From: Candidatus Magasanikbacteria bacterium CG11_big_fil_rev_8_21_14_0_20_39_34
GTDB lineage: Bacteria; Patescibacteriota; Patescibacteriia; Magasanikbacterales; UBA922
Assembly (NCBI GenBank): GCA_002787355.1
Contig: PCWN01000003.1
Location: 8,606 to 72,605 of the forward strand
Direction: 5' to 3'
Length of the DNA: 64,000 nucleotides
Numbering within the stretch: position 1 is the first letter of the stretch; every line of letters starts with the position of its first letter. The position numbers and the translations under genes are program-made. The notes under the pieces were generated by a model. That model was not told the origin of the DNA. It searched no databases and saw only the letters and a program-made list of their open reading frames with translations. Of the stretch, positions 35,817 to 60,653 are shown piece after piece.

Positions 35817-35935
35817 TTTGAAACCCTTGCAAAAAGAATCCAACAGAGATAAGTCCTCAAAAAAAGCACTCCCCTCTCCTAAATTCTTTATTTTTCTTCT
35901 TATTTTAGCAAAAAAATTTTCTTTTCGAACGGGCC

Positions 35936-39876: not shown

Positions 39877-39943
39877 CTCAGGTCAACTTTCGTGAAATTC
39901 TTTACGAAGATGACCTTTTTTGGTTTGTAGGAAAGGCAGAACC

Positions 39944-40354: not shown

Positions 40355-40437
40355 GTCCTGCCCCACCCAGGACCAATCCCCCACACTCCCTATCTTAAAA
40401 GAAGGTAATGAGTACCAAGGGATTTTCTGTCTTACCC

Positions 40438-41314: not shown

Positions 41315-41416
41315 TTTGCGAAAAATTATTCACGTATTGAGTATATTTTCTGTTCAAAATTTGTTTGCTCTTCCGTTTACAATCTGATATAATTGAGAGA
41401 AGTTTTAACTATCCAC

Positions 41417-42458: not shown

Positions 42459-42903
42459 AAAAAACATGCAGGTAAATATTAAACGCATAGATTCCTCTCT
42501 CCCCCTTCCAGAATATCAGACGGAAGGAGCCGTTGCGTTTGATATGTACAGTCGGATTGAAGCAAAAATTCCACCGGGAAAAACAGCTCTCCTTCCCACA
42601 AACCTTATTATCGAGACTCCTCCTGGATACATGCTTATGCTTGCCGCAAGATCAAGCCTTGCAAAAAAACGTGGACTGAAACTTGCAAATGGAGTTGGAA
42701 TCATTGATCAAGATTATTGTGGGGATACCGATGAAATTTATATTCATATGCATAACTTTAGCGAGACCTTGGTAAAAATTTCACCCGGAGATCGCTTAGT
42801 CCAAGGTATGTTTGTCCCTATTGAAAAAGCTACCTGGAAAGAGCAAACCCGTATGAACAAAGAAAGTCGTGGTGGATTTGGAACAACGGGGGATCAAACC
42901 TAA
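42436..42903 (+). CDS. dut: dUTP diphosphatase
   Basis: dUTPase motifs GAVAFDMY, RSSLAKKRG, GIIDQDYCGD, GDRLVQ and RGGFGTTG. Confidence 0.85.
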   Translation, partial: FKSIVTSKKNMQVNIKRIDSSLPLPEYQTEGAVAFDMYSRIEAKIPPGKTALLPTNLIIETPPGYMLMLAARSSLAKKRGLKLANGVGIIDQDYCGDTDEIYIHMHNFSETLVKISPGDRLVQGMFVPIEKATWKEQTRMNKESRGGFGTTGDQT

Positions 42904-43134: not shown

Positions 43135-43163
43135 TTGACGAATAAAGATCTTTTTAGTATAAT
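43135..43163 (+). promoter_or_regulatory. sigma70-type promoter (TTGACG-17-TATAAT) for the giant-ORF operon
   Basis: Hexamers with a 17-nt spacer, 33 nt upstream of the first giant ORF. Confidence 0.5.
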
Positions 43164-45961: not shown

Positions 45962-45982
45962 TTCAGCTATGTAATTTTTTCT

Positions 45983-47737
45983 ATGGCACGAGGTGAATAC
46001 CGAGTCGCAAAACAACTCACACAAGAATCTGTACACAGGCAGGCCAATCTTGATGCACAACAAGGCAAGCGTGTTCGGGGTGGAACAGATGTTATTCGTG
46101 TTCGAAATGCCAGAAAGGTTTCCGGTTATACTTATGAGAAGATAGATCGTAGAGGTGAATACATGGGTATTCATGTGGGTGACCGTGTACAGTTTACTCC
46201 CCTTTCATCTTTTGGTCACAGTCCTGGACTCCTGAGTGGATATGTTGCAGAAGTGCGTGGCCACATGTTCAAAGTACATCTCACACACCCCAAAGGACAT
46301 CCCGATGCTGGAAAATTAACTTCTCCACCAGATTTTGAGTATGTAAACTATGACAATATCGTCAATCATGTTGACCTTTCAACAAAAGCTGAGACACCTG
46401 AAGTTGAAACTCCTCCAGAAGAAACTCCCCCCACCGAAGCGGCGAGAGAAACTGAGGCAGAACCCAAACGAGAACAACTCACCGACTTTATTTCCTGGGA
46501 ACCAAGTACACAAACAGCCAATGTAGCTGGGACAGAAGTGTCCTTTGATCTTGGTGTTCCCCCAGAATGTGTGCTTTTGTCTCAAGAAGATGAAAGCGGA
46601 AATACACGACTTCGTTTTTCCTATAGTGATGAAAATTTTCTTGAGCTCTCAGCACTTGGTACGGATCAATATGCGTTTAGTATTCTCCTGCAAGGACAAA
46701 ATCCTGAAGTTCCAACGGAAGACGGCACAGCTACCATTCCCCTTCTTGGTGTTGAAGTGAAAAAGGAAAACATGGTAAATATTTTTCAACAGTTTGTTCA
46801 TGCAGTAAAAGGTTTGGATATTGTGGCTCCGGAAAGTGAACCTACTCCTTCAATAGAAGGCGAAGAAGAAAATGTAGATGAAGAGCCAAAGGAAGAAGCG
46901 ATTGAACAAAAAAAGGAAAAAAGAAGACCTGATACAGATATTCGTACACACGTAGATGACCTTGTAGCACGACAACTTGGACGTGATATCGTTGGAGCCG
47001 CGGTAGATCAAGAATTGGATCGAATGCAAGAGATTGAAGAAGTGCTTGAAGCACAAATCGAAAGATACAAAAAAGAATTAAAAGAGAGGGTAAATACAGC
47101 AATATTACAACTACAAGCAAAAGATCATGGGAAAAACCGTCTTTGTTGTGATCCTTCTTACTTTGATGAAAAACTTTTAAAAGTTTTACAAGATACAGAA
47201 AAAATTCAAGATCTCCTTTCAATCATAGATGATCCCCAAAATTCAAATCTGTTTCCAACTGATAAAATTGTTTTTACCAGTGAAACCTTTGCAGATAATG
47301 TACTCATGCAGCCAGACACCAAAATGCTTTACATTAATAGAGATGCCACACCAGAAGATCTTAGAAATTTTTATGAGAATTGCAAACAAGCAAAAAATGA
47401 TCGTGAAGCATTTTTTAAGAGTCTTCAAGCATTAAATGCCCCTTTCGTATATTTCACCGATGAGGTTCATCATTTTGATCAAAGTTTTATAGATACCTCC
47501 ATTGGAACAGAAGGCACCAAAGCTATTAAAAAATGTGCCGAATTTATTACCAAAAACCCTGTAAAAGGAACCGTAGAAAAAATAGTTATTTCCGTGAAAG
47601 AAACGGATCAGTTATTTGTGTATGACAAAGAACAAAAATTCCTTATTATAAGCCCAAAGGCAGGTTGGGAAAACTATGAAGACAAACTAAGAGAAGTACT
47701 CCTTATCATAGAACAAACAGCTCCATCCAGATCTTAA
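45983..47737 (+). CDS. giant-operon protein 2 (584 aa, hypothetical; Pro/Glu/Thr-rich linker)
   Basis: 22 nt downstream of ORF1 on the same strand. Linker ETPEVETPPEETPPTEAARETEAEPK. Confidence 0.65.
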   Translation: MARGEYRVAKQLTQESVHRQANLDAQQGKRVRGGTDVIRVRNARKVSGYTYEKIDRRGEYMGIHVGDRVQFTPLSSFGHSPGLLSGYVAEVRGHMFKVHLTHPKGHPDAGKLTSPPDFEYVNYDNIVNHVDLSTKAETPEVETPPEETPPTEAARETEAEPKREQLTDFISWEPSTQTANVAGTEVSFDLGVPPECVLLSQEDESGNTRLRFSYSDENFLELSALGTDQYAFSILLQGQNPEVPTEDGTATIPLLGVEVKKENMVNIFQQFVHAVKGLDIVAPESEPTPSIEGEEENVDEEPKEEAIEQKKEKRRPDTDIRTHVDDLVARQLGRDIVGAAVDQELDRMQEIEEVLEAQIERYKKELKERVNTAILQLQAKDHGKNRLCCDPSYFDEKLLKVLQDTEKIQDLLSIIDDPQNSNLFPTDKIVFTSETFADNVLMQPDTKMLYINRDATPEDLRNFYENCKQAKNDREAFFKSLQALNAPFVYFTDEVHHFDQSFIDTSIGTEGTKAIKKCAEFITKNPVKGTVEKIVISVKETDQLFVYDKEQKFLIISPKAGWENYEDKLREVLLIIEQTAPSRS

Positions 47738-47742
47738 ATCTT

Positions 47743-50100
47743 ATGCATCAAGCCTACGAACGACTGAAAATAGCACTAAACGATGCCCGCAACGTAGTAG
47801 ATACTGCTGGATTTTTTGATATTGCAGAAACAGATCTCGAAAAAGCTGTGGAGAGAATGGACATAACAGACCTAAGGATGACACTTGAAGCATTAAAAGA
47901 AAAAAGAAAAATGGTTGCAGACGCACGCATGGCACTCCCAGAGCGTCCCCCCCGATTTGAAGCAGAAGTCATAGAAGAAGCAAAAAAAGATCCAGACTCC
48001 TTCTTTTCTGCACACCAAAAAGCTTTGAATGCAGCCACAAATGGTGAAGCCATAGGACGTGATGACTTAAACCAAGCTCTCCAAGGTGTGCTGTTAGACC
48101 TAAGTGACGCAACGTTCTTTTTTGAACCTGAAGCCCAAATGAACTTTTTAAAAGAAAAGAAAAAGGAAGAAGAAAGAAGAAAAATTATTTCAGATATACA
48201 AAGCAAATCTCTAGAACGTCCATTTTTTCCCTATACCCTTGCCCCTCTTGGCCGAGAACTAGATTTTATTTCAAACGAGGGACTGGAACTCATCCTCCAA
48301 AATCTTCCAGAGCTTGGGCATATCCTGAAAAAATATGAATTTGTTCCTGATGAAATCCTTCTTGAAGATACAGTACCTGTAGCATTTATAGACACTACCC
48401 CCCTAAATGGTCTCCATCATACCAAACTCCGGATTACACTCAATAATGAATACTGGAAAGAAGAGCTTGGAAAAGAAATTGCCGCCTCTCATCAACCTAC
48501 TACAGAAAGAGAAACAAATAATAACAAAATTCGCTTTATACTTTGGGATACACAGTTTGGAAAGAATCTGCATGCGCGGGTATATATTCAAAACGGATTT
48601 GTAGATGATAGACGTACACCTGCATTCCTTGCAGATACCACAGACACAGGTTTTAGAAACAAGTTATTACAGGTCCAGAGCTGGATAGAAGAATATGCAA
48701 GAGAAATTTTAGAAGATAGTACACTAGACATGTCCATTACAATAACTCAAACATGGAATGCAGGAGGTTCAGGAACTCTTGAAATTCCTATCTTTAAAGA
48801 TGAAGCAACCATTAAACTATTTATTATTGATTACGTAGATGACTACAAAAAATTAAAACTCTTTAACTCTGTTCGAAATACGTTTTCAGAACCAGAAAGA
48901 ATTAGTACTTCTTCTTCTGATATTCCAGACACCATCTCCGAAAACGAAATGCAAAAACGGATAGAAGAAATCCTGAATACCCTTGATCGTGCAGGATTGT
49001 CCAAAGTAAAAGTAGTCAATGCGGGGTACTCTCGGATAGACCTCTCAGATGAAAGTATTTTCGTTTGTTTTTTTGATGATGATTGGAGGGAACAACTCAA
49101 TGCTTGCATTGAAAAGTATACAAGAAAATTAGAAGACGATAGACAAGAGCAAGAGCAAAAAAAAGAACGCTCTGCAGCAATCCTGAGGGTACAAAGACTC
49201 GTTGAAGAATTTAATACTCGATCTGATCAGATAGAAATAATTATACGTGATAATTATTTTACATATCTTCAGACCTCAGAAATCATAGATCATGAACGAG
49301 ATTTGCCACTTATTTTTCGTCAACTCAGAACTGGAGATTATCCCCGCATACAAAAAATTGTTTTTCTCCCAGGTCTCATGCCTTCCTATAAAGATGAACA
49401 TGGTACAACATTTTTGAATATCAAGGGATGTACTTTTCAGGACGTTCAACGTGAATTGGACTTTTTTGGGCACGTCTCTTTTGCTCATAACCATGAAGCA
49501 GAATCGTCTTCATCTGACTGGAACAAAGGGTTCTACTTTAGTGGAAAACTTACAGACTCAAAAAAACGTAATGGTATTGGCACGACCTACTCAGGCACCA
49601 ACCTAAATGATCCCACTGAAGGGGGAGAATACAAAGATAATAGACTCGTGAAAGGAAAGCGCTATGTAGGTGATAATTGTTATATTTACATAACTGAGGA
49701 AACTGACGTATCCTATCAAAACGGAATGGTTGAAAGAATAGAAAATGGACCAGCCACAATTTTTGTTAATGAAAAAAATTCAGAAAAAAACCCCAGAGAA
49801 AATTATGATGTCGTCTTTAGGAATGGAGAAATTCAAGAACTTAAAAGCTCTTCTCACACTGGACAGACACTTCCCCTTACTGTCGGACAGCGCTATGAGT
49901 ATCTCCCCAAAAAAGGTGTCCTATCAAGACTCAAAACAGAAAAAGCGAGAGTTTCCAATATGTATATTTCAAGTCGCGGAGATAATCTACTGTATGTTGA
50001 TATAATTACTCCGGAAAATGAAACCATAACAGTACCCTATAATAAAATTGATAAATATCTAAGAACGCTACCAGAGCCCAAACCCAAAAAAAAATCCTAA
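47743..50100 (+). CDS. giant-operon protein 3 (785 aa, hypothetical; C-terminal MORN-like Gly/Tyr repeats)
   Basis: 5-nt gap from ORF2. C-terminal YFSGKLTDSKKRNGIGTTYSGTNLNDPTEGGEYKDNRLVKGKRYVGDNCYIY resembles MORN repeats. Confidence 0.65.
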   Translation: MHQAYERLKIALNDARNVVDTAGFFDIAETDLEKAVERMDITDLRMTLEALKEKRKMVADARMALPERPPRFEAEVIEEAKKDPDSFFSAHQKALNAATNGEAIGRDDLNQALQGVLLDLSDATFFFEPEAQMNFLKEKKKEEERRKIISDIQSKSLERPFFPYTLAPLGRELDFISNEGLELILQNLPELGHILKKYEFVPDEILLEDTVPVAFIDTTPLNGLHHTKLRITLNNEYWKEELGKEIAASHQPTTERETNNNKIRFILWDTQFGKNLHARVYIQNGFVDDRRTPAFLADTTDTGFRNKLLQVQSWIEEYAREILEDSTLDMSITITQTWNAGGSGTLEIPIFKDEATIKLFIIDYVDDYKKLKLFNSVRNTFSEPERISTSSSDIPDTISENEMQKRIEEILNTLDRAGLSKVKVVNAGYSRIDLSDESIFVCFFDDDWREQLNACIEKYTRKLEDDRQEQEQKKERSAAILRVQRLVEEFNTRSDQIEIIIRDNYFTYLQTSEIIDHERDLPLIFRQLRTGDYPRIQKIVFLPGLMPSYKDEHGTTFLNIKGCTFQDVQRELDFFGHVSFAHNHEAESSSSDWNKGFYFSGKLTDSKKRNGIGTTYSGTNLNDPTEGGEYKDNRLVKGKRYVGDNCYIYITEETDVSYQNGMVERIENGPATIFVNEKNSEKNPRENYDVVFRNGEIQELKSSSHTGQTLPLTVGQRYEYLPKKGVLSRLKTEKARVSNMYISSRGDNLLYVDIITPENETITVPYNKIDKYLRTLPEPKPKKKS

Positions 50101-50106
50101 AATAGT

Positions 50107-53100
50107 ATGCATGAACAATTTCGGGCACTTCCCGAAGCACAACGCAGTGAAGCACTCCTCAATCAAATTGGGGCTCTTGTCCATGTCTCCGGTTTTAAAT
50201 GGAAGGACGTTCTGGATGGAGGAAAACAAGCCTTAAGAGAGGGAAGACTTCATGAGGGAAATCTTTCTGTCTATCATGCCATGATGAGAGAACTTTATAC
50301 CCTCAAAGGAGAACTTGGTACCGCAATCTCAGAACACCCAAAAGAAGCAAAATTTGCTTTTCGTGAAAAAGAAATAGCCGGAAGAACCATACACATTGCA
50401 GAAAATGTTTCAGATATTGATCTTGCACTGCGAGAAGATGATATTGCATCATTTGTTGAATATACAAAAGATCCCCTCTTCTCAAAAGCACCTATAAACA
50501 GACTGGAGATAAGAAAAAAGAATTTTTCGCCCAAAAGAGCTGGTGCCCCCGCAAAAAGGGAAGAAAAAATTATTCTTCGTGTTACCTTTTCTTCAGGATA
50601 TCAAACGGATTTGCCAGATACTACGATTGGTGGATCCTCGCCACTCAAAATAAAATTTGAACATACCGCAAAAAATTCACATAATCCCCCAACACCATTT
50701 AGACTCTATGAAAGTGGTATTGATGAGAAAACTCTTGAAAAAAATCATTGGTCAAGAGATGTGGATGAGACCACAGATCCACCAATAACAACCATTAAAG
50801 ATGCCGCAGGAAGCATCATTCAAAAAGGAACCTTCAATCAAAAAGGAGAACTTTTACAAGGAGTAAGTAATTATAAAATACCTGTTATAGGCACGCAGGG
50901 AATGCGAATTACACAAGATACCCGCCAGGTTGACGGCTCTCTTATCCTTTTGGAAGAGCACATTGAGGACAATCCGGAAAATAAAATATATGCGAACACA
51001 AAATTAGTTGGTTTATTTGAAAAAAAACCAGATGGTGGAAAAGGAGAATCTCTCTCCCCACTTGCCGTGTACGACAAAGATGAAAAACTTATAGCGGTCA
51101 CCAACAGGAAACCACTCCAACGAGGAGAAAAAGAAACTGACTTCTCATTTCTCAAAGGGAGGTTAAGTACAGCGCTTTCTGAAGGAACGGGCTTAAAAAC
51201 ACTTGAAGCCTCTTTTGTAGATGAATACATCCATGGGGATGTTTCCACAGTGGCACAGGAGATCGCTCAGAATATTCTTCATCCAAAGGATTATAAAAGA
51301 GTTCCTGAACTTTCAGTTGCTATTGAACGGACACTTTTCCTCTTTGACTTGTATACAATGAATCCACTTGTAGAAAGTGCAAAAATCTCAACAGATACTT
51401 TGGATACTTTACAAGATGCCATAAATATTCTTCTACAAAATGCCGTCATAGATCTTCATGCAAGAATTGATAGACTGGCACAAGATTATATTGCGCTTGA
51501 CAAAGGAGGGTTCCTACCCGAAGAAAAAATTGGAGAATTTGCCATGCGACTTAAGGAGGAACGCAGACAAGTTGAACATACTTTTCAAACACAAAAAGCA
51601 GAGCTTTTTGAATTTGTCCAGAAAACCGGATCACTTGAAGCCACATTTGAGAATACAGCACTTGCAGTAGACCAAAATGATGGATCTGTTTCTATGGCAG
51701 AATCTGTACAACCAGCTCTTACAGTAATTGATAAAATTTTAGCCGCCATTGATGGTGATTTAGATCCGCCACCTACGCTATCGGAACCAGAGCCGGAGCC
51801 AGAACCTGAGCCAGAACCTGAGCCAGAGCCAGAACCAGAACCAGAGCCAGAACCTGAGCCAGAACCTGAGCCAGAACCTGAGCCTGAACCTGAGCCAGAA
51901 CCAGAGCCAGAACCTGAGCCTGAACCTGAGCCAGAACCTGAGCCAGAACCTGAGCCAATAAAACAAGAAACACTCCTTTCTCCAGAAAAAAAGGCGGAAA
52001 TGGAACGAGTGAAAGAACTCTACAAACCAACGTATCCGGTTACTCTTCTTGATGGAAGTTCAAAGTTTGAGAACTTTTCGTCAAATCCAGATACCAAAGC
52101 ATTTACTGAAATGAAGGAGTATCTTGAAAATGCTCGTCTGGTAGCACTGGAAGATGCCCATGGAAGTGCCTACAAAATTTTTGAACGTGCTATTCTTTCC
52201 GGATTTATCACGCTTCCCGAAGAGAAAGCAAAACGATTTCAAGAGCTCTACCAACAGGCCGTGAAACTTCGTTTTGGTGAATTAAAGACCGTGCCTGCAT
52301 ATGGCGTAATACTTAAAGATCCACTTGATGACCCGGCTTCTTTTGAAAATTTTAAAAAACTTCATGATGAAATGCTTACGATTATTGCTGAAATAGAATG
52401 GACGGGAGAAGATAGAACCTACCTTCTCCTTGGTGATACGGTCTATGACAGAGGCCTCTCAGATACACTCACCCTTGCGCTGATAGAAAAAATGCGCAAA
52501 GAAGGGGGAAAAGTCCCTATACTTGCCTCAAACCACGACCTTTCCGTGTTCTTACAGGACCTCCACATACAAACACTGTATATATCCCACATTACTGCAG
52601 AAAAACTTGGAGAAGATGAAGCGCGCAAAAAAGAATATGTGGCCAATCATGATGTCTTCTATTATGATGCAGAAACACAAAAAATCTTTGCGCATGCTCC
52701 TATAAACCTGGGAGTTATCAATGAGCTAAAAAAAGCTACAGGATTTACGGATGACATAGACCAAAAAAATCTTCCTGAATTTATAGAAAGATGTAATAAG
52801 TGGTACCATGATCTCCTGCACAAATGTCTTGAAGGCCATGTATTTACAAATGAGGAAATAATTCTACTAAAAAATGTTACTTGGAAAAGTGATCCCTACT
52901 CTGACCTGTACATATTTGAAAGAGGCCGTGAACCCGTTCGCCTGAGTGAAGATAACCTCCCAACAGAACAAAGACTGCCACTGAAAGGCGTTGTACGGCA
53001 GTTCATTCATGGACATGATTCTAGTAGTAAAAAAAGTCCATTTGATATACGTCAAAACCATGCGAATACACCAGACTACACAACCGTAAATCTTGATAAT

Positions 53101-53937
53101 GCAACGTACCGAGGTGAACGCGTTGGTGATAGAACGCCAGCCCTCTTCTTTGCTATAGGAGAAAAGAAAGAAGCACCTGAAAAAAAGAAAGAAGAAAATC
53201 CCTATCTCTCAGAATCTATTCTTGGACAACACATCACCCGGGTGGTCCATGACATTGTGGTAAAAACAGGAGACTATTTCCGTTTTTCAAATGATAACGG
53301 AAAAACATGGATCTATGGACGTGTCGCTTCTATCTCGGAAAAAAGAACAGATGCCGACCAAAGCTTTCCTTTTTTCAGAGAAGAAGATGGAAGAGTGATG
53401 TATTTTAATGGTTATAAAAAAAGCATGCACGATATAGGCACCCAGTTTGAAAAACTTGATGAACCTGGTAAACATGCAGAGGCTAAGAAAACACAGGAAG
53501 TGGATTCTGAAAAACTCTTGGCAATCCTCAACGATCTTCAACCATACTTACCAAGTATACAGCCCGAAAAAATTGTACCGACGTGGATTCAAAAAGCCAA
53601 AGAAACATCCAGTATTCCTATGGAAGTCCAAAGGCAAATCATCATCCTTTCTCAGAGAAATCATAAGAATCATGAATACTTTGATTGGTCAGAAGAGAAT
53701 CCACTTGCAACTAAACTCCGCGAATTGGCAGCAGTATTTGGAGTAACTCTTCTTACTTCAGAGGGGCAAATCCCAGATAGAGAGAAACATTATAACCAAA
53801 GAGGCATTGATCACGATGACCTGAAAGCCCAAGGGATAAATATACAACGCAATCGTATTTATAAAACACTTGCCCCAGGTTTTATTGCGTCAAATGGTGA
53901 AGTCATCAGTCAAGAAAATGTTTTGGTAACTTTTTAA
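50107..53937 (+). CDS. giant-operon protein 4 (1276 aa): N-terminal region, (Glu-Pro)x29 linker, calcineurin-like/PPP-type metallophosphatase-like domain
   Basis: EP repeat at aa 560-617. Downstream motifs in canonical order: LEDAHG (GDxHG-like), [11 protein letters not shown] (GDxxDRG) and ILASNHD (GNH[DE]-like), then FIHGHD. Confidence 0.7.
51784..51957 (+). repeat. 29 tandem copies of a 6-nt GAR-CCN unit encoding (Glu-Pro)29
   Basis: Counted codon by codon. The units are imperfect at synonymous positions (gaa/gag, cca/cct/ccg). Confidence 0.9.
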
Positions 53938-53962: not shown

Positions 53963-56900
53963 ATGCCACAAAGCTCCGCATACAAAGAACGAGTACAACA
54001 AGAAGTACTCGGTACCAAAAAAGTACTGCGGGATTTTGGTATTGAAAAAATAAAATCCGATGCAGATCTTTTTAAGGCTTTACGTGCCCTTCGTGATGCA
54101 GGACGACTGGATGAGTTAAAAGCACTGCTTCATGCCCGTCGTGAGGCCATTACCACCGCTCTTGGAAAAACTATTATTCTTGGAGGAAGAGATGGAAAAT
54201 CAAGATATTTTGAAGGAGAAGTTGTGGATGATCTCCCCAATGGAGTTGGACGCATCATAGAGGGCAAGAAAGTAGAAGCAGACGGTGAATTTAAAGATGG
54301 CTACCTTCAGCATGGCATTGCATACAGATATGATGGTGAAACCCTACGATTTACTACCATAGTAGAAGAAGCATATCCAAATGGTAGGGTAAAAAGCGGA
54401 AGTATTATCAACGCAAAAGACGGAAGACGTCTTTCTTCCGAAGCATTTCACGAGGACGGAACCACAGACCAAGGTGAACTTATTGATGAAAATGGTATTG
54501 TGTTAAAAGAAGGTGCTTTTGTAGTTTATGATAAACACCTGCTCCTTTCTTCCGGACAGATTGAGCACTATCCCCACACACATACAGTCCATATTGGGGA
54601 TCAAGATATTCCAATAGTCCGCACAGACGCGAATTCATACCGATTTGAAAAGCAAGCGGATACTTATCAAGAAATGCCGGAAGGCAAAGGAACAACTACC
54701 GATACCAAAGGCCAAGTCTATGAAATTTACTTTGAAGACGGAAAAGACTATAGAGCACAAGGATATGTAAAGGTTTACAAATCAGCGGAAGAGCACAAAC
54801 TTCTCAGAATACTCAATCGTGAAATTTCCTTTGCTCCTCCAGCGCTTGATCAAGATGCTATACAACAAAAACTTGCAGAACTGCGCACCGGTAAGGGTGA
54901 AGAAGCAACTTTGCGAACTGAACTAAGTGATCTCTACAAAACAACTCATGATGCACATACTACCTTCAACAATGAACTGGTTCCCTTTATACAAAAAAAT
55001 TATGTAGATGCATCAGTAGGAGATATACAGAGTAAGCTGAAAATTGGTCATTTTGCTACCAAACTCAATGCAAAAATTACTACGCTCAAAAAACAAGCTA
55101 ACACTGAACCTGATCAAATAACCCTAAAACATGCACTGGATACAATCCGATACCAAGGTTTTACCAAAGGAGCAACGGAAAGCCTAAAAGATCTTCTTGC
55201 AGAATATTGCACTATAGACAATAGTACCGGTGGATTTATCTCTGACTCAAACAAAGATGCCTTCCTTGCAGCCTATTCTGCAAATATGGAAGCAACACTT
55301 GCACAAATTCGAAGCACCCTAGATACAACTGCGGAAGCCTTTTTGGATGAGAAAAAAGCACGTGAAATTACTTCAGGAAATATTCACAAATGGTTTAAAG
55401 AATTAGGTGAGGCAAAAGGATTTTCCTTTTCTGTAGCAGGATCCACCTTTGAATTTCGAGCAAATTTACAACCTGATGGATCTCTTCATGCTCAGTATGA
55501 TGAGGATGAAATGAATATTGTACTCAATGGAGATGCCCTCACTGCAACCGTACGTATTGCAGGAAAAGAATCTCAACGTAGCCTTCCAAATTCAAAAGAA
55601 TCACTAAAACTATTGCTTCTCGGTTTTAAAGCAGAGCTAGAGAAAAAAGAACAAAGCAGAGCCGTTGAAGCTGCTATTCAGACTGCTGCCAATGCACACA
55701 TTTGGCCTTGTTGGGACGAAAAAACCCAATCTCCCGCTTCTCCTGCAAAGCTTGATGAAGATACCGGGAAAAATTTTGATGCTGCCAGACGCAGAGTTCT
55801 CCATACCCTTGATTTTTCTATTGATCGAGATACCTATTTTGAAATTTATACGCAATGGTTTGATGCACATATTGCAGAATATGGAAGCAGTGGTGAATAT
55901 TTTGCAGATGTGTACAAAGGTGATCGAGAAAAGAAATTTCGCATTATTCAACTGCTTGAAAAAGATTCTTTTAATGAAGATGAAAAAGGAGAACTTACTG
56001 AACTTCTTTCTTATTTAGAAAAAGATGTAAAAGGAAACCACGATCTCATGAGTGCTCTTGAGTACTCCTCTGATACATTAAAAGAACAAATAAAAACTCT
56101 TAAAAAGAAACTTGGAATAAAAAAAGAAAAGAAAAGTCCGACTGATGCGCCCAAAAAAGTTGAAGTCACACAGACAGAGCAGTTTCAAAGAGATCTTCAA
56201 GATGCACAGAATGATATTGCGCAAATGCGTACGATTCTTGTAAAAGATTCACTGAGCGAATATGATGAAGCGACCCTGGGTGATTTAGCAGAAACACTAA
56301 GGTTCACCCTTGAGAGACTTGAACAGATTGATCCAACACTCTATGACCAACTTGATACCACAAAGAAAGCACTCTGGGCAGAGCTCAAACTTAATCAAGA
56401 AACAGCAGAACAACCCGGAAACGAATTTGTTCGTGACCATACGGAGACTCCTGAAGACAGTGAACCACGCATGGGTCCCTACGCTGAATATGATACAAAA
56501 AAGATATCTTCTGCAATTCATGCCGTAAAAGAATTAGTCATCCTGTTATCGGAAACTGATGAAGAGTTAGAAGATGCTACCCCCTTCATGGAGTTTGAAA
56601 TGGATTTAATAGCACTCCTTTATCTCACTTCAAATAAAAGTGGTAGAAAAACCGAAGTACTTTCCGCTCTTCATGGAGTCTTTGATAATCCAGGTCAATT
56701 TTTTGAATCTCTCAATAATATAGAAGATGTCATTGCAGATGAGTACCGAGAACGAACCCTTGAATCACCCATTTCAGCAGAAGACAGAGCACTTGCAATG
56801 AATATCTTAAATATCCTCAATAAAGATTCAGATCTTTCTCTTTCAGTATTAGAAAAAAGAGCGTATTATTGTGCAAAGTGCATTGTAGATGAACGGGAAG

Positions 56901-59212
56901 ATACTTTCTTGCGTATCTATAGAAGTACTGTCACCGATACTCCTGACGAATCAATTGAATCCCAAAGAATGCTCGCTCTTGTCGGACAAAAAAATATACC
57001 AGAAGCCCTTACTGCAGAAAAAGTAAATGAAATATTAAAAGGATATTATTACACACGCATAAATGAACATATAGAAAGAATGGAACGTGCGCAAGCTACG
57101 AAAGGAAGGGATTATGCCACACGTATAAAAGGAGTCGCACAACAAAAGTCCGTTTCTGAAATGGATGAAACTGAGCGAACTATCCTTGAATCAGATATAA
57201 ATGTTCTCTTACTTACCCGGGGGAAATCTGAATACAAAAAACAAAAACAAGAGGCAGTTATTGGAGCCTTGAATGGTCAGTTTGAAAATTACGAACAACT
57301 CCTTGAGGCCATATACAAAAAAAATCTTGAACTTGTCATATATAAAAGAGATCACTCTACGGCACTTCCCCCAGATGAATATGCCCTTGTACGTGCACTC
57401 ATTGATGCCAATAATGAAGAGGAAGAAATTGTACATAAAGACCGTCCTGAAGAAAAACAAATAGTGCCTGCAAAACATTCTTTATTTAGAATAGACAAAA
57501 ATATTCGGATGATCCGTGGTATTGTGCGTACTGGTGGAGCACAATGGCTTCGTATTCATCTTGGAGATCCTCTTCGTGTACAAGAAAGAAATGGTACTAT
57601 CACTCTCCCTGCACAAACAGAAAGACGGATTGCAAACCTCAAATCAAAGTATCCAGACCTCTGCAAAGATCCAGAAGGGAATGAAATTTCAGATATAGAA
57701 CTTACCCAAAAGCTTCAAAATCTTTTGGAAGACTATTATTATTTTGAAATAAAAACCAATCGTGCCAATCTAGAAGAAAGAAAAGAAAATGTCTTTGAAC
57801 ATAAAGCCTTTTCTGAGATGTCTCCTTCTGATGAACAACGTTTTGTAAATAATTTGGTATTCTTTGGGGTACACCACATAGAACGTAGACGAATGGTTAT
57901 GGGGATATTTGGTCTTACCCCAGAGGAATATAATGCATTTCTTTTAGAAGTGAAAAAGGTGGATGATGAATATACACGATTCAAAATAGCAAATGCTGAA
58001 AAACCAACCCAAGAAGAAATGTCACTCGCACATGCTCTAAGAAAAGGTAATGAACTTGATCCAAAACTCAAACACATCTTAGATGAACGACAAAAATACC
58101 GAAGAAATAGACGTGCTATCCCGAAAGATTTGGAGCTGAACAGAGACCAGCATAATCAAGTTCGGATGAGTCTCCATGATGTGGAGACACAGTTTATTGA
58201 ATTGCGAAGAGGACTTTTATCTAAAGATGCAGTGCGTTTGTATGCACTTGAACCTATTCTGCGAAAATACGGGGCCATAACAGAAGAAAGAATTAAAAAT
58301 GCACAACAAGCATATACCGGTACTCAAGATGTTTCTTCAATTTCACGACAAACCTGGAATGATGCATACACCAAGCATTTTTATTGGAGACTCAAACAGG
58401 CGCAAGAAAAGAAAATTGCTGATGATGCAGCAAGAGAGAAAAGAGTTCAAACAGGCCAACGCGTCCGTGCTACCGGTGGGACAAGCGATGCACAGCTCGC
58501 AGGAAAACTTGGAGGGCTTTTTGCAAATGTACTTCAAGATGTTGACCTATCCAGGGCACAGTATGCTCCAGAAAAAATAGACGCTATTCTGTCTGGACAC
58601 TCTGAGGTGCTTACCCGTTATGTGAAGGCACGTCCTGGCGCCACCTATACGACAGAATTTCTTACAAAGTATCTGACAAAAGAAAAACTAAAAGCACTTG
58701 AAAAAATTGTGGGAGACAAAAAATATTCTCCACTCTTTGAAGAATTATCTCTTACCATAGTACTTGTTGAACCTAAATTCAATGGAGAAGATGGAGCAGA
58801 CCAAGATATTGAAGGTGAAGAAATTGACTTGGATCTCTCTATTCCAAACTCCCTTGATTCTCTTCGAGAAGCTCTCGAAGACCTGCTCAAAGAACAAGAA
58901 GAGCAAAACGCTGAAGAAAAAATTAATGCCTATATATTAAAATTCTTAGAAAATTATGAGATACAGGGGAATCCCGGAGAAGATAACCTGGAAAACATAT
59001 TCCTGGTTCAAGGGGAGACCAGAATATCCGCAGCTGACTTTGCAACAGAAAAATTTGAGAACCTCTCAAATGAGTTTATAGAAAAGAATATTGCAAAAGG
59101 AGCAAATGTCCTTTCCATTACAGAAGCCTTCATTGATATTGTCAAAAACACCCTTTCTGAGTCAGCAGATGGTGAAGAGGATAATAATACAGAGACGCTT
59201 GACGAAGAATAA
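53963..59212 (+). CDS. giant-operon protein 5 (1749 aa, hypothetical; N-terminal MORN-like repeats, long helical remainder)
   Basis: N-terminal YFEGEVVDDLPNGVGRIIEGKKVEADGEFKDGYLQHGIAYRYDGE repeats. The rest is Glu/Lys/Leu-rich with an acidic C-terminus, no TM helix and no signal peptide. Confidence 0.7.
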   Translation: MPQSSAYKERVQQEVLGTKKVLRDFGIEKIKSDADLFKALRALRDAGRLDELKALLHARREAITTALGKTIILGGRDGKSRYFEGEVVDDLPNGVGRIIEGKKVEADGEFKDGYLQHGIAYRYDGETLRFTTIVEEAYPNGRVKSGSIINAKDGRRLSSEAFHEDGTTDQGELIDENGIVLKEGAFVVYDKHLLLSSGQIEHYPHTHTVHIGDQDIPIVRTDANSYRFEKQADTYQEMPEGKGTTTDTKGQVYEIYFEDGKDYRAQGYVKVYKSAEEHKLLRILNREISFAPPALDQDAIQQKLAELRTGKGEEATLRTELSDLYKTTHDAHTTFNNELVPFIQKNYVDASVGDIQSKLKIGHFATKLNAKITTLKKQANTEPDQITLKHALDTIRYQGFTKGATESLKDLLAEYCTIDNSTGGFISDSNKDAFLAAYSANMEATLAQIRSTLDTTAEAFLDEKKAREITSGNIHKWFKELGEAKGFSFSVAGSTFEFRANLQPDGSLHAQYDEDEMNIVLNGDALTATVRIAGKESQRSLPNSKESLKLLLLGFKAELEKKEQSRAVEAAIQTAANAHIWPCWDEKTQSPASPAKLDEDTGKNFDAARRRVLHTLDFSIDRDTYFEIYTQWFDAHIAEYGSSGEYFADVYKGDREKKFRIIQLLEKDSFNEDEKGELTELLSYLEKDVKGNHDLMSALEYSSDTLKEQIKTLKKKLGIKKEKKSPTDAPKKVEVTQTEQFQRDLQDAQNDIAQMRTILVKDSLSEYDEATLGDLAETLRFTLERLEQIDPTLYDQLDTTKKALWAELKLNQETAEQPGNEFVRDHTETPEDSEPRMGPYAEYDTKKISSAIHAVKELVILLSETDEELEDATPFMEFEMDLIALLYLTSNKSGRKTEVLSALHGVFDNPGQFFESLNNIEDVIADEYRERTLESPISAEDRALAMNILNILNKDSDLSLSVLEKRAYYCAKCIVDEREDTFLRIYRSTVTDTPDESIESQRMLALVGQKNIPEALTAEKVNEILKGYYYTRINEHIERMERAQATKGRDYATRIKGVAQQKSVSEMDETERTILESDINVLLLTRGKSEYKKQKQEAVIGALNGQFENYEQLLEAIYKKNLELVIYKRDHSTALPPDEYALVRALIDANNEEEEIVHKDRPEEKQIVPAKHSLFRIDKNIRMIRGIVRTGGAQWLRIHLGDPLRVQERNGTITLPAQTERRIANLKSKYPDLCKDPEGNEISDIELTQKLQNLLEDYYYFEIKTNRANLEERKENVFEHKAFSEMSPSDEQRFVNNLVFFGVHHIERRRMVMGIFGLTPEEYNAFLLEVKKVDDEYTRFKIANAEKPTQEEMSLAHALRKGNELDPKLKHILDERQKYRRNRRAIPKDLELNRDQHNQVRMSLHDVETQFIELRRGLLSKDAVRLYALEPILRKYGAITEERIKNAQQAYTGTQDVSSISRQTWNDAYTKHFYWRLKQAQEKKIADDAAREKRVQTGQRVRATGGTSDAQLAGKLGGLFANVLQDVDLSRAQYAPEKIDAILSGHSEVLTRYVKARPGATYTTEFLTKYLTKEKLKALEKIVGDKKYSPLFEELSLTIVLVEPKFNGEDGADQDIEGEEIDLDLSIPNSLDSLREALEDLLKEQEEQNAEEKINAYILKFLENYEIQGNPGEDNLENIFLVQGETRISAADFATEKFENLSNEFIEKNIAKGANVLSITEAFIDIVKNTLSESADGEEDNNTETLDEE

Positions 59213-59297: not shown

Positions 59298-60170
59298 ATG
59301 CAGGCATACCTTGATATTGTCAAAAAGATTCTCGAACATGGTGAGGAGAAAGAAAATAGGACCGGAACCAATACCCTATCCATTGCTGGAGTCCTGTTTG
59401 AACATGACATGAGCACAGGGTTTCCACTCCTTACTACCAAAAAAGTCCCCTTTCGTCTCATTGCCTCTGAGTTAGAATTTTTTATCAAAGGGATTACAGA
59501 TAAAGAATGGCTCAAAGAAAGAAATAATCACATCTGGGATGAATGGGCACACCCCCTCAAAGCCCCTTATGGACACGACGAGGCCTCAAAACAACGCATG
59601 ATGGAAGAAAGGGATTTGGGCCCTGTGTATGGCTTCCAGTGGAGACACTACAATGCAGAATATGAAAATTATAACTCAGACTATTCCGGAAAAGGAGTAG
59701 ATCAGCTTGCCAAAATTGTAGACTCACTCAAAAATAATCCCAATGATAGAAGAATGCTCGTGAGTGCATGGAATCCAATACAAATGAACCAAATGGCGTT
59801 GCCACCTTGCCACTACGCCTTTCAGGTAGTGGTAAATAATGGGAAACTCAATCTCATGTGGAACCAACGCTCCGTTGATGTAATGTTAGGACTCCCCTTC
59901 AATATTGCCAGCTATGCATTGCTCCTGCACCTACTTGCCAAAGAGGCAAATCTTCAAGAAGGGAGACTCGTTGGTTTCTTGGGAGACACCCATATCTACA
60001 CCAATCATAGGGATGGTGCACAAGAACAACTCTCACGTGACCCCAAAAAGTATCCCCTTCCACAGATTATAACCGAACCTTTTACCTCAATTTTTGACTG
60101 GTCTTATGAAGACAGTAAAATTGAAAATTATCAAAGTTACCCAAGAATATCCTTTGAAATTGCTGTCTAA
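59298..60170 (+). CDS. thyA: thymidylate synthase (ThyA)
   Basis: Motifs RTGTNT, GPVYGFQWRH, ALPPCH (catalytic Cys), WNQRSVDVMLGLPFNIASYALL (Asn, not Asp, at the dUMP-specificity position) and GDTHIYTNH. Confidence 0.93.
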   Translation: MQAYLDIVKKILEHGEEKENRTGTNTLSIAGVLFEHDMSTGFPLLTTKKVPFRLIASELEFFIKGITDKEWLKERNNHIWDEWAHPLKAPYGHDEASKQRMMEERDLGPVYGFQWRHYNAEYENYNSDYSGKGVDQLAKIVDSLKNNPNDRRMLVSAWNPIQMNQMALPPCHYAFQVVVNNGKLNLMWNQRSVDVMLGLPFNIASYALLLHLLAKEANLQEGRLVGFLGDTHIYTNHRDGAQEQLSRDPKKYPLPQIITEPFTSIFDWSYEDSKIENYQSYPRISFEIAV

Positions 60171-60179
60171 CACATACCT

Positions 60180-60653
60180 ATGATTACTCTCATTGCTGCT
60201 GTATCAGAAAATTTTTGTATAGGAAAAAATGGTGAGCTTCCTTGGAACATCCCTGAAGATCTAAAGCATTTTAAACGTCTTACGGAAGGGCATGTGGTCA
60301 TAATGGGAAGAAAGACATGGGAATCCATCCCCGAAAAATTTCGCCCACTTCCTAAGAGAAAAAATGTTGTCATTACACGGCAAACAAACTATCCGGTTCC
60401 AGAAGGTGTGGAAGTTTTCTCAAACCTCGAAGAGGCGCTTCTTGCCTTCTCTCAACAATCCGTCTTTATTATTGGTGGAGAACAGATTTATTCGGCAACA
60501 ATAGAAAAAGCAGACCAACTTGAAATAACACATATTCAAAAAACCATACCTGATGGTGATGCTTTTTTTCCCGCAATAGACTCAAACCTTTGGGAAAACG
60601 TATCCGAGGAAACACACGAAAATTTTTCTTTTGTGACGTACAAACGCAAATAA
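60180..60653 (+). CDS. folA: dihydrofolate reductase
   Basis: MITLIAAVSENFCIGKNGELPWNIPEDLKHFKRLT and VIMGRKTWESIP, 157 aa. Confidence 0.9.
   Translation: MITLIAAVSENFCIGKNGELPWNIPEDLKHFKRLTEGHVVIMGRKTWESIPEKFRPLPKRKNVVITRQTNYPVPEGVEVFSNLEEALLAFSQQSVFIIGGEQIYSATIEKADQLEITHIQKTIPDGDAFFPAIDSNLWENVSEETHENFSFVTYKRK

What the first reader, a model, noticed from the sequence alone, without database searches (positions are those of the whole stretch)
50107..53937. Giant protein 4 combines a (Glu-Pro)29 rigid linker with calcineurin/PPP-type metallophosphatase motifs
A perfect run of 29 EP dipeptides (nt 51784-51957) separates an N-terminal region of about 560 aa from a C-terminal region. That C-terminal region carries, in canonical order, D-x-H-G (LEDAHG), G-D-x-x-D-R-G ([11 protein letters not shown]) and an N-H-D/E motif (ILASNHD), then FIHGHD. 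These are the metal-binding signatures of PPP Ser/Thr phosphatases and of ApaH-like diadenosine tetraphosphatases. The motif I to motif II spacing is unusually long at about 100 aa. EP repeats form extended polyproline-II spacers, as in TonB and procyclins. A tethered phosphatase or Ap4A-hydrolase-like domain inside a giant protein, next to dNTP-metabolism genes, is unusual.
Basis: partly seen in the sequence, partly recalled or inferred. Interest (0 to 1): 0.78.

Follow-up and report, generated by a model that had tools for sequence, protein, structure and literature searches.

The report
Wip-type phosphatase in a CPR giant protein
A 1276-residue protein of an uncultured ultra-small (CPR, Magasanikbacteria-like) bacterium carries an intact phosphatase domain of the WipA/WipB type, so far studied only as Legionella effectors, joined to an unknown N-terminal module by a (Glu-Pro)n spacer and kept at a conserved site among thymidylate-synthesis genes.

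Summary
ORF 50107-53937 (+) encodes 1276 aa with a perfect (EP)29 at aa 560-617, followed by metallophosphatase motifs in canonical order.

- **Host.** The genome is a CPR bacterium. Every close relative that carries a name is a "hypothetical protein" from Candidatus Magasanikbacteria.
- **Context.** In five diverged lineages the Wip-like gene sits inside the dcd-kinase-dut-thyA-folA cluster. Its flanking modules range from 0 to 920 aa and are unrelated. Only this lineage has four extra orphan giant ORFs.
- **EP tract.** Near-identical contigs carry 7, 29 or 51 EP units. Each step is a 132-nt deletion between perfect direct repeats. This may be real variation or assembly collapse.
- **Function.** Most likely a Mn-dependent phosphoprotein phosphatase held on a spacer and targeted by its orphan modules. 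Substrate and secretion route are unknown.
- **Verdict.** A new variant of a known kind, of moderate interest.

The parts
50107..53937 (+). Complete ORF, 1276 aa. It is acidic (net charge -65) and has no signal peptide or TM segment.
50107..51771 (+). N-terminal orphan module (aa 1-555). No relative was found anywhere. Presumed to be a targeting or partner-binding module.
   Evidence: No hits in Pfam, NCBIfam, PHROGs, PADLOC or PDB. The word-indexed homology search found nothing. No similarity to any of the family members held.
51784..51957 (+). (Glu-Pro)29 tract (aa 560-617), preceded by DPPPTLS. It lies exactly at the N-terminal boundary of the phosphatase domain and is read as an extended spacer. 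Other assemblies carry 7 or 51 units.
51982..53151 (+). Wip-family (WipA/WipB-like) binuclear metallophosphatase domain, aa 626-1015.
52147..52164 (+). Motif I, LEDAHG (D683, H685). The family consensus is GDxH[GA]; here the Gly is replaced by Glu.
52165..52416 (+). Helical insert between motifs I and II (aa 687-770). A Wip-family feature that explains the long spacing.
   Evidence: Model helices at domain residues 63-72, 80-98 and 118-135. Alignment to WipB residues 7-134. PMC5454105.
52432..52455 (+). Motif [10 protein letters not shown] (D777, D781, R782). Wip-type GDxxxDRG.
52525..52539 (+). Motif III, ASNHD (N809, H810).
52687..52701 (+). Motif IV, FAHAP (H863). Aligns with SHAG in WipB and SHAP in WipA.
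52888..52962 (+). Lineage-specific, low-confidence insertion (aa ~928-952). It lies between the conserved Trp926 and the Arg939 that the alignment places at the column of WipA Arg369.
   Evidence: pLDDT <50 at model residues 303-327. Alignment gap in all relatives.
53002..53019 (+). Motif V, FIHGHD (H968, G969, H970). Identical to FIHGHD in WipB.
53152..53934 (+). C-terminal orphan module (aa 1016-1276). Absent from all relatives, in which the phosphatase domain is C-terminal.
   Evidence: The exhaustive search found no hit beyond query residue ~400.
43196..50100 (+). Three upstream large acidic orphan ORFs (921, 584 and 785 aa) on the same strand, with 5-21 nt gaps. Together with the Wip protein and the 1749-aa ORF they form one apparent operon.
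53963..59212 (+). Downstream 1749-aa acidic orphan ORF, 25 nt after the Wip protein.
43135..43163 (+). Best sigma-70-like site of the region (TTGACG-17-TATAAT, 11/12), in the 292-nt gap between dut and the first giant ORF.
   Evidence: consensus match only; the overall count is at chance level
41393..42903 (+). dCMP deaminase, P-loop nucleotide kinase and dUTPase. This is the upstream half of the conserved thymidylate cluster.
59298..60653 (+). thyA and folA. This is the downstream half of the conserved thymidylate cluster.

Best explanation
The ORF encodes a soluble, acidic protein in three parts.

Its central domain (aa ~626-1015) is a catalytically intact member of the WipA/WipB family. This family is a distinct branch of the PPP-like (calcineurin-fold) binuclear metallophosphoesterases. 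It is marked by GDxH, GDxxxDRG, SNH[DG], a fourth His, and HGHD, with a helical insert between motifs I and II. By analogy with WipA and WipB, the domain should hydrolyse phosphomonoesters on proteins using Mn2+.

The (EP)n tract sits exactly at the N-terminal edge of this domain. It acts as an extended, acidic polyproline-II-like spacer that holds the enzyme away from an orphan N-terminal module. That module and the orphan C-terminal module most likely supply targeting. [quoted passage not shown]

The gene belongs to a clade found in CPR bacteria, with every named relative from Candidatus Magasanikbacteria. The clade keeps one copy inside the dcd-kinase-dut-thyA-folA cluster. Its catalytic domain evolves about twice as fast as most neighbouring genes, and the appended modules are replaced between lineages. 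I read this as an effector-like, partner-directed phosphoprotein phosphatase of an episymbiotic bacterium.

- Shown here: family membership, an intact active site, the architecture, the host phylum, the synteny and the rapid divergence.
- Inferred: a protein substrate, a targeting role for the flanking modules, the spacer function, and action on a partner cell.
For: **Family and fold**
- PF21663 scores 60.3 bits against a cutoff of 27.
- NF043030 hits at E 2.7e-23 over profile positions 16-309 of 330. It is the only NCBIfam hit for the domain at E<=1.
- All five motifs align one-to-one with WipA and WipB.

**Active site**
- D683, H685, D777, D781, R782, N809, H810, H863 and H970 are invariant in the 18-sequence alignment.
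- They correspond to WipA H32, D180, D184, R185, N212, H213 and H290. Of these, H32A and D180A abolish activity, H213A nearly does, and R185A lowers it by 60-70% (PMC5454105).

**Precedent for modular targeting**
- The WipB C-terminal domain directs it to lysosomes (PMC5572681).
- WipC appears reduced to the catalytic domain, and the authors propose that the grafted parts of WipA and WipB encode targeting (PMC5454105).

**Host phylum**
- GyrB is 77% identical to a 1.23-Mb MAG and 62-63% to Buchananbacteria and Falkowbacteria.
- Every close relative that carries a name is labelled Candidatus Magasanikbacteria, except P0007, which is labelled Kaiserbacteria.

**Rapid evolution**
- Most neighbouring proteins (GyrB, NusG, L1, Dcd, ThyA, FolA) are 50-82% identical between lineages. 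The Wip domain is 28-32% identical.
- N-terminal extensions of 0, 186, 397, 625 and 920 aa share no similarity.
- Several relatives also have Pro/Ala/Ser/Glu-rich linkers just upstream of the domain.

**EP tract**
- Only synonymous differences occur among the units. This indicates selection on the peptide.
Against: - None of the five large proteins has a signal peptide or TM segment.
- The window holds no secretion-system gene and no protein kinase.
- CPR bacteria are not known to have the Dot/Icm system that exports Legionella Wip proteins. The T4SS described in CPR is of the monoderm conjugation type (bioRxiv 10.1101/2025.01.22.634366).
- The gene is tightly packed with housekeeping nucleotide genes in five lineages. 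That fits an internal role as well as, or better than, an effector role.
- The domain scores far below the NCBIfam curated cutoff (82.6 against 300 bits).
- dut (24-53% identity) and the kinase (33-42%) in the same cluster also evolve fast. The rate argument is therefore suggestive, not decisive.
- The substrate class (pTyr, pSer/pThr or a nucleotide) cannot be read from the sequence. The segment holding the WipA-Arg369 equivalent is interrupted by a low-confidence insertion.
Confidence: 0.5

Rival explanations
1. Nucleotide-directed hydrolase coupled to thymidylate synthesis. On this view the Wip-like domain acts on a nucleotide: an ApaH-like Np4N hydrolase, or a phosphatase on dNTP, dNDP or dNMP that feeds or drains the dUMP/dTMP pool. 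It stays in the dcd-kinase-dut-thyA-folA-tmk operon because it works in that pathway.
For: - The gene neighbourhood is conserved in five diverged lineages. Four have dut-Wip-thyA (window, L090, L098, L101) and one has thyA-Wip-folA (L088). Gaps are short or the genes overlap.
- CPR bacteria depend on nucleotide salvage (general knowledge).
Against: - No ApaH or other nucleotidase profile hits at E<=1.
- Appended modules of 0-920 aa that are unrelated between lineages, plus an EP spacer, are not expected for a pathway enzyme.
- Paralogues from Magasanikbacteria-labelled and unlabelled contigs lie in a quite different context, smpB...Wzz-DUF5663-giant protein.
- One Magasanikbacteria MAG carries both a 469-aa and a 2806-aa family member.
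Confidence: 0.2
2. Self-directed cytoplasmic regulatory phosphoprotein phosphatase. The enzyme would dephosphorylate the bacterium's own Ser/Thr/Tyr-phosphorylated proteins, as bacterial PPP-like PrpA/PrpB enzymes do. The large modules would be scaffolds inside the cell.
For: - None of the five large proteins has an export signal.
- No secretion genes lie nearby.
- The gene lies within a housekeeping operon.
Against: - A conserved internal regulator would not be expected to show rapid divergence and wholesale replacement of its appended modules between close lineages.
- The characterised family members, WipA and WipB, are translocated effectors (PMC5454105, PMC5572681).
- No cognate kinase is seen in the window, though the rest of the genome was not available.
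Confidence: 0.22
3. Non-functional or artefactual gene. The ORF would be a decaying remnant or an assembly chimera, and the EP tract an assembly artefact.
For: - The EP copy number differs among assemblies (7, 29, 51). Each step equals the loss of 132 nt between perfect 30- or 59-nt direct repeats, which is what a short-read collapse would give.
- Three contigs begin within or 16 nt upstream of the tract.
Against: - The 3.8-kb ORF is uninterrupted. Outside the tract its protein is identical in three further complete copies, and its DNA is >=99.9% identical on every overlapping contig from six other samples.
- All catalytic residues are intact.
- All tract variants keep the reading frame.
- The 51-unit allele contains unit orders absent from the 29-unit allele, so it needs its own reads.
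- Variation among units is exclusively synonymous.
Confidence: 0.03

Closest known systems
Legionella pneumophila WipA (lpg2718; PDB 5n6x, 5y9o)
   Same: - Same five motifs, including the family-specific GDxxxDRG, SNH and HGHD.
- Helical insertion between motifs I and II.
- Catalytic domain combined with extra parts.
- WipA is Mn2+-dependent (PMC5454105).
   Different: - Only 17-21% identity.
- WipA is a 500-residue-class Dot/Icm effector of a gammaproteobacterium that acts on eukaryotic phosphotyrosine proteins.
- The window protein is 1276 aa, from a CPR bacterium, with an EP spacer, orphan N- and C-terminal modules, and an insert of about 94 aa against about 150 aa in WipA.
- It has SNHD where WipA has SNHG.
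- The segment that should hold the Arg369 equivalent is interrupted by an insertion.
- No IcmSW or Dot/Icm context is known for it.
Legionella pneumophila WipB (PDB 5nny)
   Same: - Motif I-II spacing is similar: 86 aa against 94 aa here.
- FIHGHD is identical.
- Modular design: a phosphatase domain plus a separate targeting domain (PMC5572681).
   Different: [quoted passage not shown]
- In the window protein the catalytic domain is central, and the flanking modules are unrelated to those of WipB.
ApaH (symmetrical Ap4A hydrolase; PDB 9ojd, 2dfj)
   Different: - Much lower structural score than the Wip proteins.
- No ApaH profile hit.
- ApaH lacks the long helical insert between motifs I and II.
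- ApaH is a roughly 270-280-aa stand-alone enzyme.
Canonical PPP phosphatases (PP1, calcineurin/PP2B, PP5, lambda phosphatase) and the Shewanella cold-active PTP (1v73)
   Different: - Motif II is one residue longer.
- SNHD replaces GNHE, and EDAHG replaces GDxHG.
- The generic Metallophos profile does not reach E<=1.
EP and EP/KP proline-rich spacers (TonB, trypanosome procyclin/PARP, SslE/AcfD N-terminus)
   Same: Same dipeptide composition. These produce compositional hits: PF05887 at 22 bits, TonB NF008084 at 37.5 bits, and PDB 23px. Such tracts are regarded as extended, rigid spacers (general knowledge).
   Different: The hits are low-complexity matches far below the family cutoffs, not homology. 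Here the tract links two cytoplasm-type soluble modules rather than spanning a periplasm or coating a cell surface.
Giant proteins of CPR and other episymbiotic or predatory bacteria
   Same: Large, fast-evolving, lineage-specific ORFs in small genomes. They are generally suspected of mediating host interaction (bioRxiv 10.1101/2023.11.21.568195; PMC8080830).
   Different: The five large ORFs here lack signal peptides, TM segments and recognisable adhesin or repeat domains. One of them carries an identifiable enzymatic domain.

Membership tests
Wip family (Pfam PF21663 WipA_Phos; NCBIfam NF043030 Dot/Icm T4SS effector Wip) | Score above the curated Pfam gathering threshold | tested here: met
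   60.3 bits against a cutoff of 27, E 2.4e-16
Wip family (Pfam PF21663 WipA_Phos; NCBIfam NF043030 Dot/Icm T4SS effector Wip) | Score above the NCBIfam curated cutoff (300 bits), which would allow naming it 'Dot/Icm T4SS effector Wip' | tested here: not met
   82.6-87.8 bits, though the match is near full-length (profile positions 16-309 of 330). It is a distant member of the domain family, not an orthologue of the Legionella effectors.
Wip family (Pfam PF21663 WipA_Phos; NCBIfam NF043030 Dot/Icm T4SS effector Wip) | Motif set in order: GDxH[GA], GDxxxDRG, SNH[GD], xHAx, HGHD | tested here: met
   All motifs align one-to-one with WipA and WipB. They are invariant in an 18-sequence alignment and near-universal in the first 70 of the 122 relatives that were listed. 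The one deviation is that the Gly before D683 is Glu.
Wip family (Pfam PF21663 WipA_Phos; NCBIfam NF043030 Dot/Icm T4SS effector Wip) | Fold closest to the solved WipA and WipB structures, with a helical insert between motifs I and II | tested here: met
   [not shown]
Wip family (Pfam PF21663 WipA_Phos; NCBIfam NF043030 Dot/Icm T4SS effector Wip) | Translocation by a Dot/Icm type IVB system (IcmSW-dependent) | not testable with these tools
   No secretion genes occur in the 64-kb window and the rest of the genome was not available. CPR T4SS are described as the monoderm conjugation type (bioRxiv 10.1101/2025.01.22.634366).
Wip family (Pfam PF21663 WipA_Phos; NCBIfam NF043030 Dot/Icm T4SS effector Wip) | Mn2+-dependent phosphoprotein phosphatase activity | not testable with these tools
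   Requires an enzyme assay. All residues whose mutation affects WipA activity (H32, D180, R185, H213) have counterparts here (PMC5454105).
Calcineurin-like metallophosphoesterase superfamily | Beta-sandwich fold with the D/H, D, N/H, H, H metal-ligand set | tested here: met
   [not shown]
Canonical PPP Ser/Thr phosphatases (PP1/PP2A/PP2B) | Exact signatures GDxHG, GDxVDRG and GNHE, and a match to the generic Metallophos profile | tested here: not met
   The sequence has [13 protein letters not shown] (one residue longer) and SNHD. PF00149 is not among the hits at E<=1.
ApaH (bis(5'-nucleosyl)-tetraphosphatase, symmetrical) | Match to ApaH family profiles, and ApaH as the closest structure | tested here: not met
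   [not shown]
TonB / procyclin (PARP) proline-rich proteins | Homology beyond the EP composition, meaning a score above the curated cutoffs or a match to the non-repeat parts | tested here: not met
   PF05887 scores 22.3 against 100 bits and NF008084 scores 37.5 against 315 bits. The hits are confined to aa ~545-644.

The most novel reading that the evidence does not exclude
A lineage of CPR bacteria labelled Candidatus Magasanikbacteria, whose hosts are unknown, has made the Wip phosphatase a standard component of its genome. This domain has so far been characterised only in Legionella Dot/Icm effectors that rewire eukaryotic host phosphosignalling. At least two paralogues occur per genome. 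One is embedded in the thymidylate-synthesis operon. The other forms part of 1800-3500-aa giant proteins next to Wzz and DUF5663 genes.

If these are true effectors, either some CPR bacteria manipulate phosphosignalling in a partner cell, possibly a eukaryote or protist, or the Legionella Wip effectors and the CPR enzymes share a horizontal origin.

The EP tract, with length alleles of 7, 29 and 51 units, would then be a tunable tether that sets the reach of the enzyme.
Probability: 0.2. Interest if true: 0.8.

Novelty: new variant of a known kind. Interest (0 to 1): 0.55.

Why it matters
Almost nothing is known about how CPR bacteria outside Saccharibacteria deal with their partners. Most of their large genes have no recognisable function.

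Here one such large protein carries an enzymatic domain with solved homologues, known catalytic residues and established assays. That makes a dark-matter protein directly testable.

It also extends the Wip family well beyond Legionellales, into a phylum that is not known to have Dot/Icm. This raises two questions: how such enzymes are delivered and what they target, and where the Legionella effectors came from.

The conserved position inside the thymidylate operon is unexplained. It is the kind of association that could point to a new regulatory or metabolic link.

The clean length series of the EP tract offers a natural experiment on spacer length.

Tried and rejected
**Searches that found nothing or failed**
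- Single-sequence AlphaFold gave pLDDT 38.8 and was unusable. It was replaced by the alignment-based model.
- Word-indexed homology searches with aa 620-1276 and with aa 1-555 found nothing.
- The GTDB genome scan with the protein found no relative.
- The first CPR-clade alignment was too diverse for the metagenome scan. A tighter alignment found only 3 loci.
- AFDB50 was unavailable.
- PADLOC and PHROGs gave nothing for any of the five large ORFs.
- Rfam found nothing in the window, so the high-GC island is not rRNA.

**Interpretations rejected**
- Hits to TonB, PARP, SslE, monocarboxylate transporter 8 and circumsporozoite protein are compositional matches to the EP tract.
- The ARAGORN tRNA-Glu inside the 785-aa ORF is an over-long, antisense prediction within coding sequence and probably false.
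- The 290-aa ORF next to P0007 is not ThyA.
- The other four giant ORFs might have been split-off pieces of the N-terminal extensions seen in relatives, for example the 920 aa of L101. No similarity was found.
- The 7/29/51 series cannot be a simple loop-traversal artefact. The 51-unit allele has a diverged second block. Collapse at small k across the 30- and 59-nt perfect repeats still cannot be excluded.
Full report
**1. The observation**

ORF 50107..53937 (+) encodes 1276 aa. A perfect (Glu-Pro)29 lies at aa 560-617, which is nt 51784-51957. TRF reports it as a 12-nt period array with score 279.

At the DNA level the units mix GAA/GAG with CCA/CCT/CCG. Every difference among units is a synonymous third-position change. 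The peptide repeat is therefore perfect while the DNA repeat is about 91% matched. This argues for selection on the peptide rather than a neutral microsatellite.

There are two corrections:
- Motif II has three residues, not two, between its Asp residues.
- A fourth metal ligand, His863 (FAHAP), was missed.

**2. What the domain is**

Sequence evidence:
- Pfam matches PF21663 (WipA-like phosphatase domain) at 60.3 bits against a cutoff of 27. The only other Pfam hit is a compositional match of the EP tract to PARP.
- NCBIfam NF043030 (Dot/Icm T4SS effector Wip) matches aa 677-977 to profile positions 16-309 of 330 at E 2.7e-23. This is far below its 300-bit naming cutoff. It is the only NCBIfam hit for the isolated domain at E<=1.
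- Against PDB sequences, the domain alone finds only WipB (E 2.5e-5) and WipA. The alignments pair LEDAHG with [18 protein letters not shown] with GDELVDRG/GDEVADRG, SNHD with SNHG, FAHAP with FSHAG/YSHAP, and FIHGHD with FIHGHD/YVHGHD.

Structural evidence:
- A single-sequence AlphaFold run failed at pLDDT 38.8.
- With an 18-sequence family alignment the model reached pLDDT 80.9 and pTM 0.86.
- Foldseek ranks WipB (E 3e-12) and WipA (E 2e-10) far ahead of ApaH at 1e-3.

Active site: D683, H685, K690, W765, G776, D777, D781, R782, D786, N809, H810, H863, N897, G969 and H970 are invariant in the family alignment. They include the counterparts of WipA H32, D180, D184, R185, N212, H213 and H290. 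Mutation of H32 or D180 abolishes activity, and WipA needs Mn2+ (PMC5454105).

The 94-aa gap between motifs I and II is the helical insert typical of this family. The equivalent gaps are 86 aa in WipB and 150 aa in WipA (PMC5572681, PMC5454105).

It is sharpened to the Wip family and moved away from ApaH.

**3. Whose genome**

The window is a bacterial chromosome. It carries gyrB, nusG, rplA, trpS, RNase J, prfA, pentose-phosphate genes and rodA.

GyrB is 77% identical to a 1.23-Mb MAG that is labelled Gammaproteobacteria, a label at odds with the other hits. The next hits, at 62-63%, are Candidatus Buchananbacteria and Falkowbacteria.

The nearest relatives of the phosphatase that carry a name are almost all 'hypothetical protein [Candidatus Magasanikbacteria bacterium]'. 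The exception is P0007, labelled Kaiserbacteria. The host is therefore a CPR/Patescibacteria organism close to Magasanikbacteria.

No paper in the searchable library links WipA or WipB with CPR. Nothing is reported there on Magasanikbacteria hosts.

**4. The family at large**

An exhaustive phmmer search of aa 620-1276 against 1.84 billion representatives found only 122 proteins at E<=1e-3. The best is 36-37% identical. Every match is confined to the phosphatase domain. Many of the hits are 1000-3500 aa long. The signatures GDxxxDRG and SNHD are near-universal among the first 70 hits listed.

Average-linkage clustering gives these groups:
- The window protein groups with P0001, P0002, P0005, P0007 and P0014.
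- P0003 and P0004 form a second pair. P0003 is labelled Magasanikbacteria, and the context of P0004 is CPR-like.
- A group of 34 proteins of roughly 370-715 aa (plus one of 1478 aa) includes P0064, which is encoded on a large contig with no CPR-type neighbours.
- A group of 13 includes the annotated Legionella and gammaproteobacterial 'Dot/Icm T4SS effector Wip' proteins.

**5. Conserved context**

In five diverged lineages the Wip-like gene lies inside the thymidylate cluster.

| Locus | Wip protein | Arrangement |
|---|---|---|
| Window | 1276 aa | dcd-kinase-dut-[921, 584, 785, 1276-Wip, 1749]-thyA-folA |
| L090 | 796 aa | dcd-kinase-dut-Wip-thyA-folA-tmk |
| L098 | 608 aa | same as L090; the gene overlaps dut by 32 nt and ends 5 nt before thyA |
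| L101 | 1313 aa | dut-Wip-thyA-folA |
| L088 | 406 aa | dut-thyA-Wip-folA-tmk |

Divergence across these lineages:
- GyrB, NusG, L1, Dcd and ThyA are 66-82% identical and FolA 50-58%. The P-loop kinase is 33-42% and dUTPase 24-53%. The Wip domain is 28-32%.
- The N-terminal extensions (0, 186, 397, 625 and 920 aa) share no detectable similarity.
- Only the window protein has a C-terminal module after the domain.

A second recurrent CPR context is smpB...255-aa and 355-aa ORFs-Wzz-DUF5663-small ORF-giant Wip protein. The giant proteins there are 1819, 2831, 3502 and 2384 aa. One Magasanikbacteria MAG (locus-tag prefix HOE80) holds both a 469-aa and a 2806-aa member.

The window's four other large ORFs are acidic (net charge -26 to -74) and have no signal peptide or TM segment. 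They have no hit in Pfam, NCBIfam, PHROGs or PADLOC and no counterpart in relatives.

The five large ORFs are separated by 5-25 nt. The best promoter-like site of the region (11/12) lies just upstream of the first, and another (10/12) lies upstream of thyA. These are consensus matches only.

**6. The EP tract**

Contigs from six other samples overlap the gene or its surroundings and are >=99.9% identical to the window outside the tract. The tract has these lengths:
- 29 units in the window, L001 and L003.
- 51 units in L002.
- 7 units in L004.

All alleles keep the frame, and the protein is otherwise identical.

The 51-unit allele holds a second, diverged 22-unit block. It is not a repeated traversal of the same sequence.

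Each shorter allele equals the longer one minus a single 132-nt segment bounded by perfect direct repeats. The repeats are 59 nt for 51->29 and 30 nt for 29->7. Real recombination or slippage gives this pattern. A short-read assembler collapsing at small k gives it too. L005 and L006 begin inside the tract, L003 begins 16 nt upstream of it, and L006 has a single-unit SNP.

The robust statements are these:
- The tract is real.
- It is at least 51 units long in one population.
- Its true length in the window's source is uncertain.

At about 3.1 A per residue for a polyproline-II-like chain (general knowledge), 7, 29 and 51 units would span roughly 45, 180 and 315 A.

Several relatives have Pro/Ala/Ser/Glu-rich linkers at the same position. 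A linker in front of the phosphatase domain is therefore a shared design, and (EP)n is its regularised extreme.

**7. Mechanism**

Shown:
- A catalytically complete Wip-type metallophosphatase.
- A tripartite architecture with a spacer at the domain boundary.
- A CPR host.
- Conserved placement in the thymidylate cluster.
- Fast divergence and module swapping.

Inferred:
- It is a Mn2+-dependent phosphoprotein phosphatase.
- The orphan modules provide targeting. In WipB the C-terminal domain does this, and a similar role is proposed for the WipA hairpin (PMC5572681, PMC5454105).
- The spacer sets the enzyme's reach.
- It acts on a partner cell.

Points against the effector reading:
- No export signal.
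- No secretion genes in the window.
- No Dot/Icm known in CPR.
- A housekeeping operon context.

Rivals:
- A nucleotide-directed hydrolase tied to dTMP synthesis. Synteny and ApaH as the next-best fold favour it. The Wip-over-ApaH gap, the variable appendages and the non-nucleotide context of the paralogues weigh against it.
- A self-directed regulatory phosphatase.

Substrate class cannot be decided. The alignment places R939 at the column of WipA Arg369, the residue proposed to favour phosphotyrosine. It does so only across a 12-residue, low-confidence insertion.

**8. Novelty and score**

The catalytic family is known, and Pfam already tags these CPR proteins. The finding is therefore not categorically new.

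Four things are new:
- The host phylum.
- The giant, EP-tethered architecture.
- The two conserved CPR contexts, especially the one within the thymidylate operon.
- The EP length series.

I rate it a new variant of a known kind, with interest 0.55. The most novel reading not excluded is that CPR bacteria use Wip-type enzymes as partner-directed effectors, possibly against eukaryotes, or share their origin with the Legionella effectors. I give that a probability of about 0.2.

Noticed in passing
window 31800-35850: High-GC island (GC 0.53-0.61 against about 0.38 for the rest). It carries a 981-aa class-A PBP (transglycosylase plus transpeptidase) on the minus strand and a 286-aa ORF with no Pfam hit. 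In relative L090 the interval between gyrB and secE/nusG holds only a 161-aa ORF. The island looks like a horizontally acquired insertion, or an assembly chimera.
   Followed up: partly
window 39920-40400: A second, short high-GC island (GC 0.67) lies just upstream of rplA. It holds a 144-aa hydrophobic, Gly-rich ORF with no Pfam hit. It also makes the mechanical rplA ORF appear about 190 aa too long at its N-terminus, since the L1 domain starts at about aa 193-219.
   Followed up: partly
window 60796-61749: In the four relatives whose contigs reach past folA (L088, L090, L098, L101), folA is followed by thymidylate kinase (Pfam Thymidylate_kin in three of them; a 195-aa ORF at that position in L101). 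Here that position is taken by a 317-aa ORF with a degenerate P-loop-like N-terminus (GGPDMSGTGT). It has no hit in Pfam, NCBIfam or PDB and no BLAST similarity to the relatives' Tmk.
   Followed up: partly
window 43196-50100 and 53963-59212: Four further large acidic ORFs (921, 584, 785 and 1749 aa) have no family hit, no signal peptide or TM segment, and no counterpart in related genomes. Together with the Wip protein they form a 16-kb lineage-specific block inserted between dut and thyA. The 785- and 1749-aa proteins share one weak 70-aa motif (31% identity, E 0.003).
   Followed up: partly
window 48269-48366 (-): ARAGORN calls a 98-nt tRNA-Glu(ttc), antisense and inside the coding sequence of the 785-aa ORF. 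It is over-long and probably a false positive. No Rfam family reached gathering score anywhere in the window.
   Followed up: no
window 38496-39407; also L088 4932-5783 and L090 6745-7545: A lipoprotein-like ORF with a Kazal-type serine protease inhibitor domain, a domain typical of eukaryotes, is conserved between the rplK region and rplA in this CPR clade. It splits the usual rplK-rplA pair together with a dehydrogenase gene.
   Followed up: no
L089, L093, L099, L102: A second conserved CPR locus type: smpB ... 255-aa and 355-aa ORFs - Wzz-like - DUF5663 - small (~66 aa) ORF - giant (1819-3502 aa) protein with an internal Wip phosphatase domain. In L099 nearby ORFs have weak Dicty_CTDC hits.
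   Followed up: partly
P0015 and P0033 (NCBI MFN7834346.1, MFN7834438.1): Two large (1478 and 1908 aa) Wip-domain proteins lie on one 168.7-kb contig of a MAG labelled Burkholderiaceae. The domain family therefore also occurs outside both Legionellales and CPR.
   Followed up: no
L008 (OZ246405.1): The closest genome by GyrB (77% identity) is a complete 1.23-Mb chromosome deposited as 'uncultured Gammaproteobacteria bacterium'. Its size and the CPR affinities of the next hits suggest the label is wrong.
   Followed up: no
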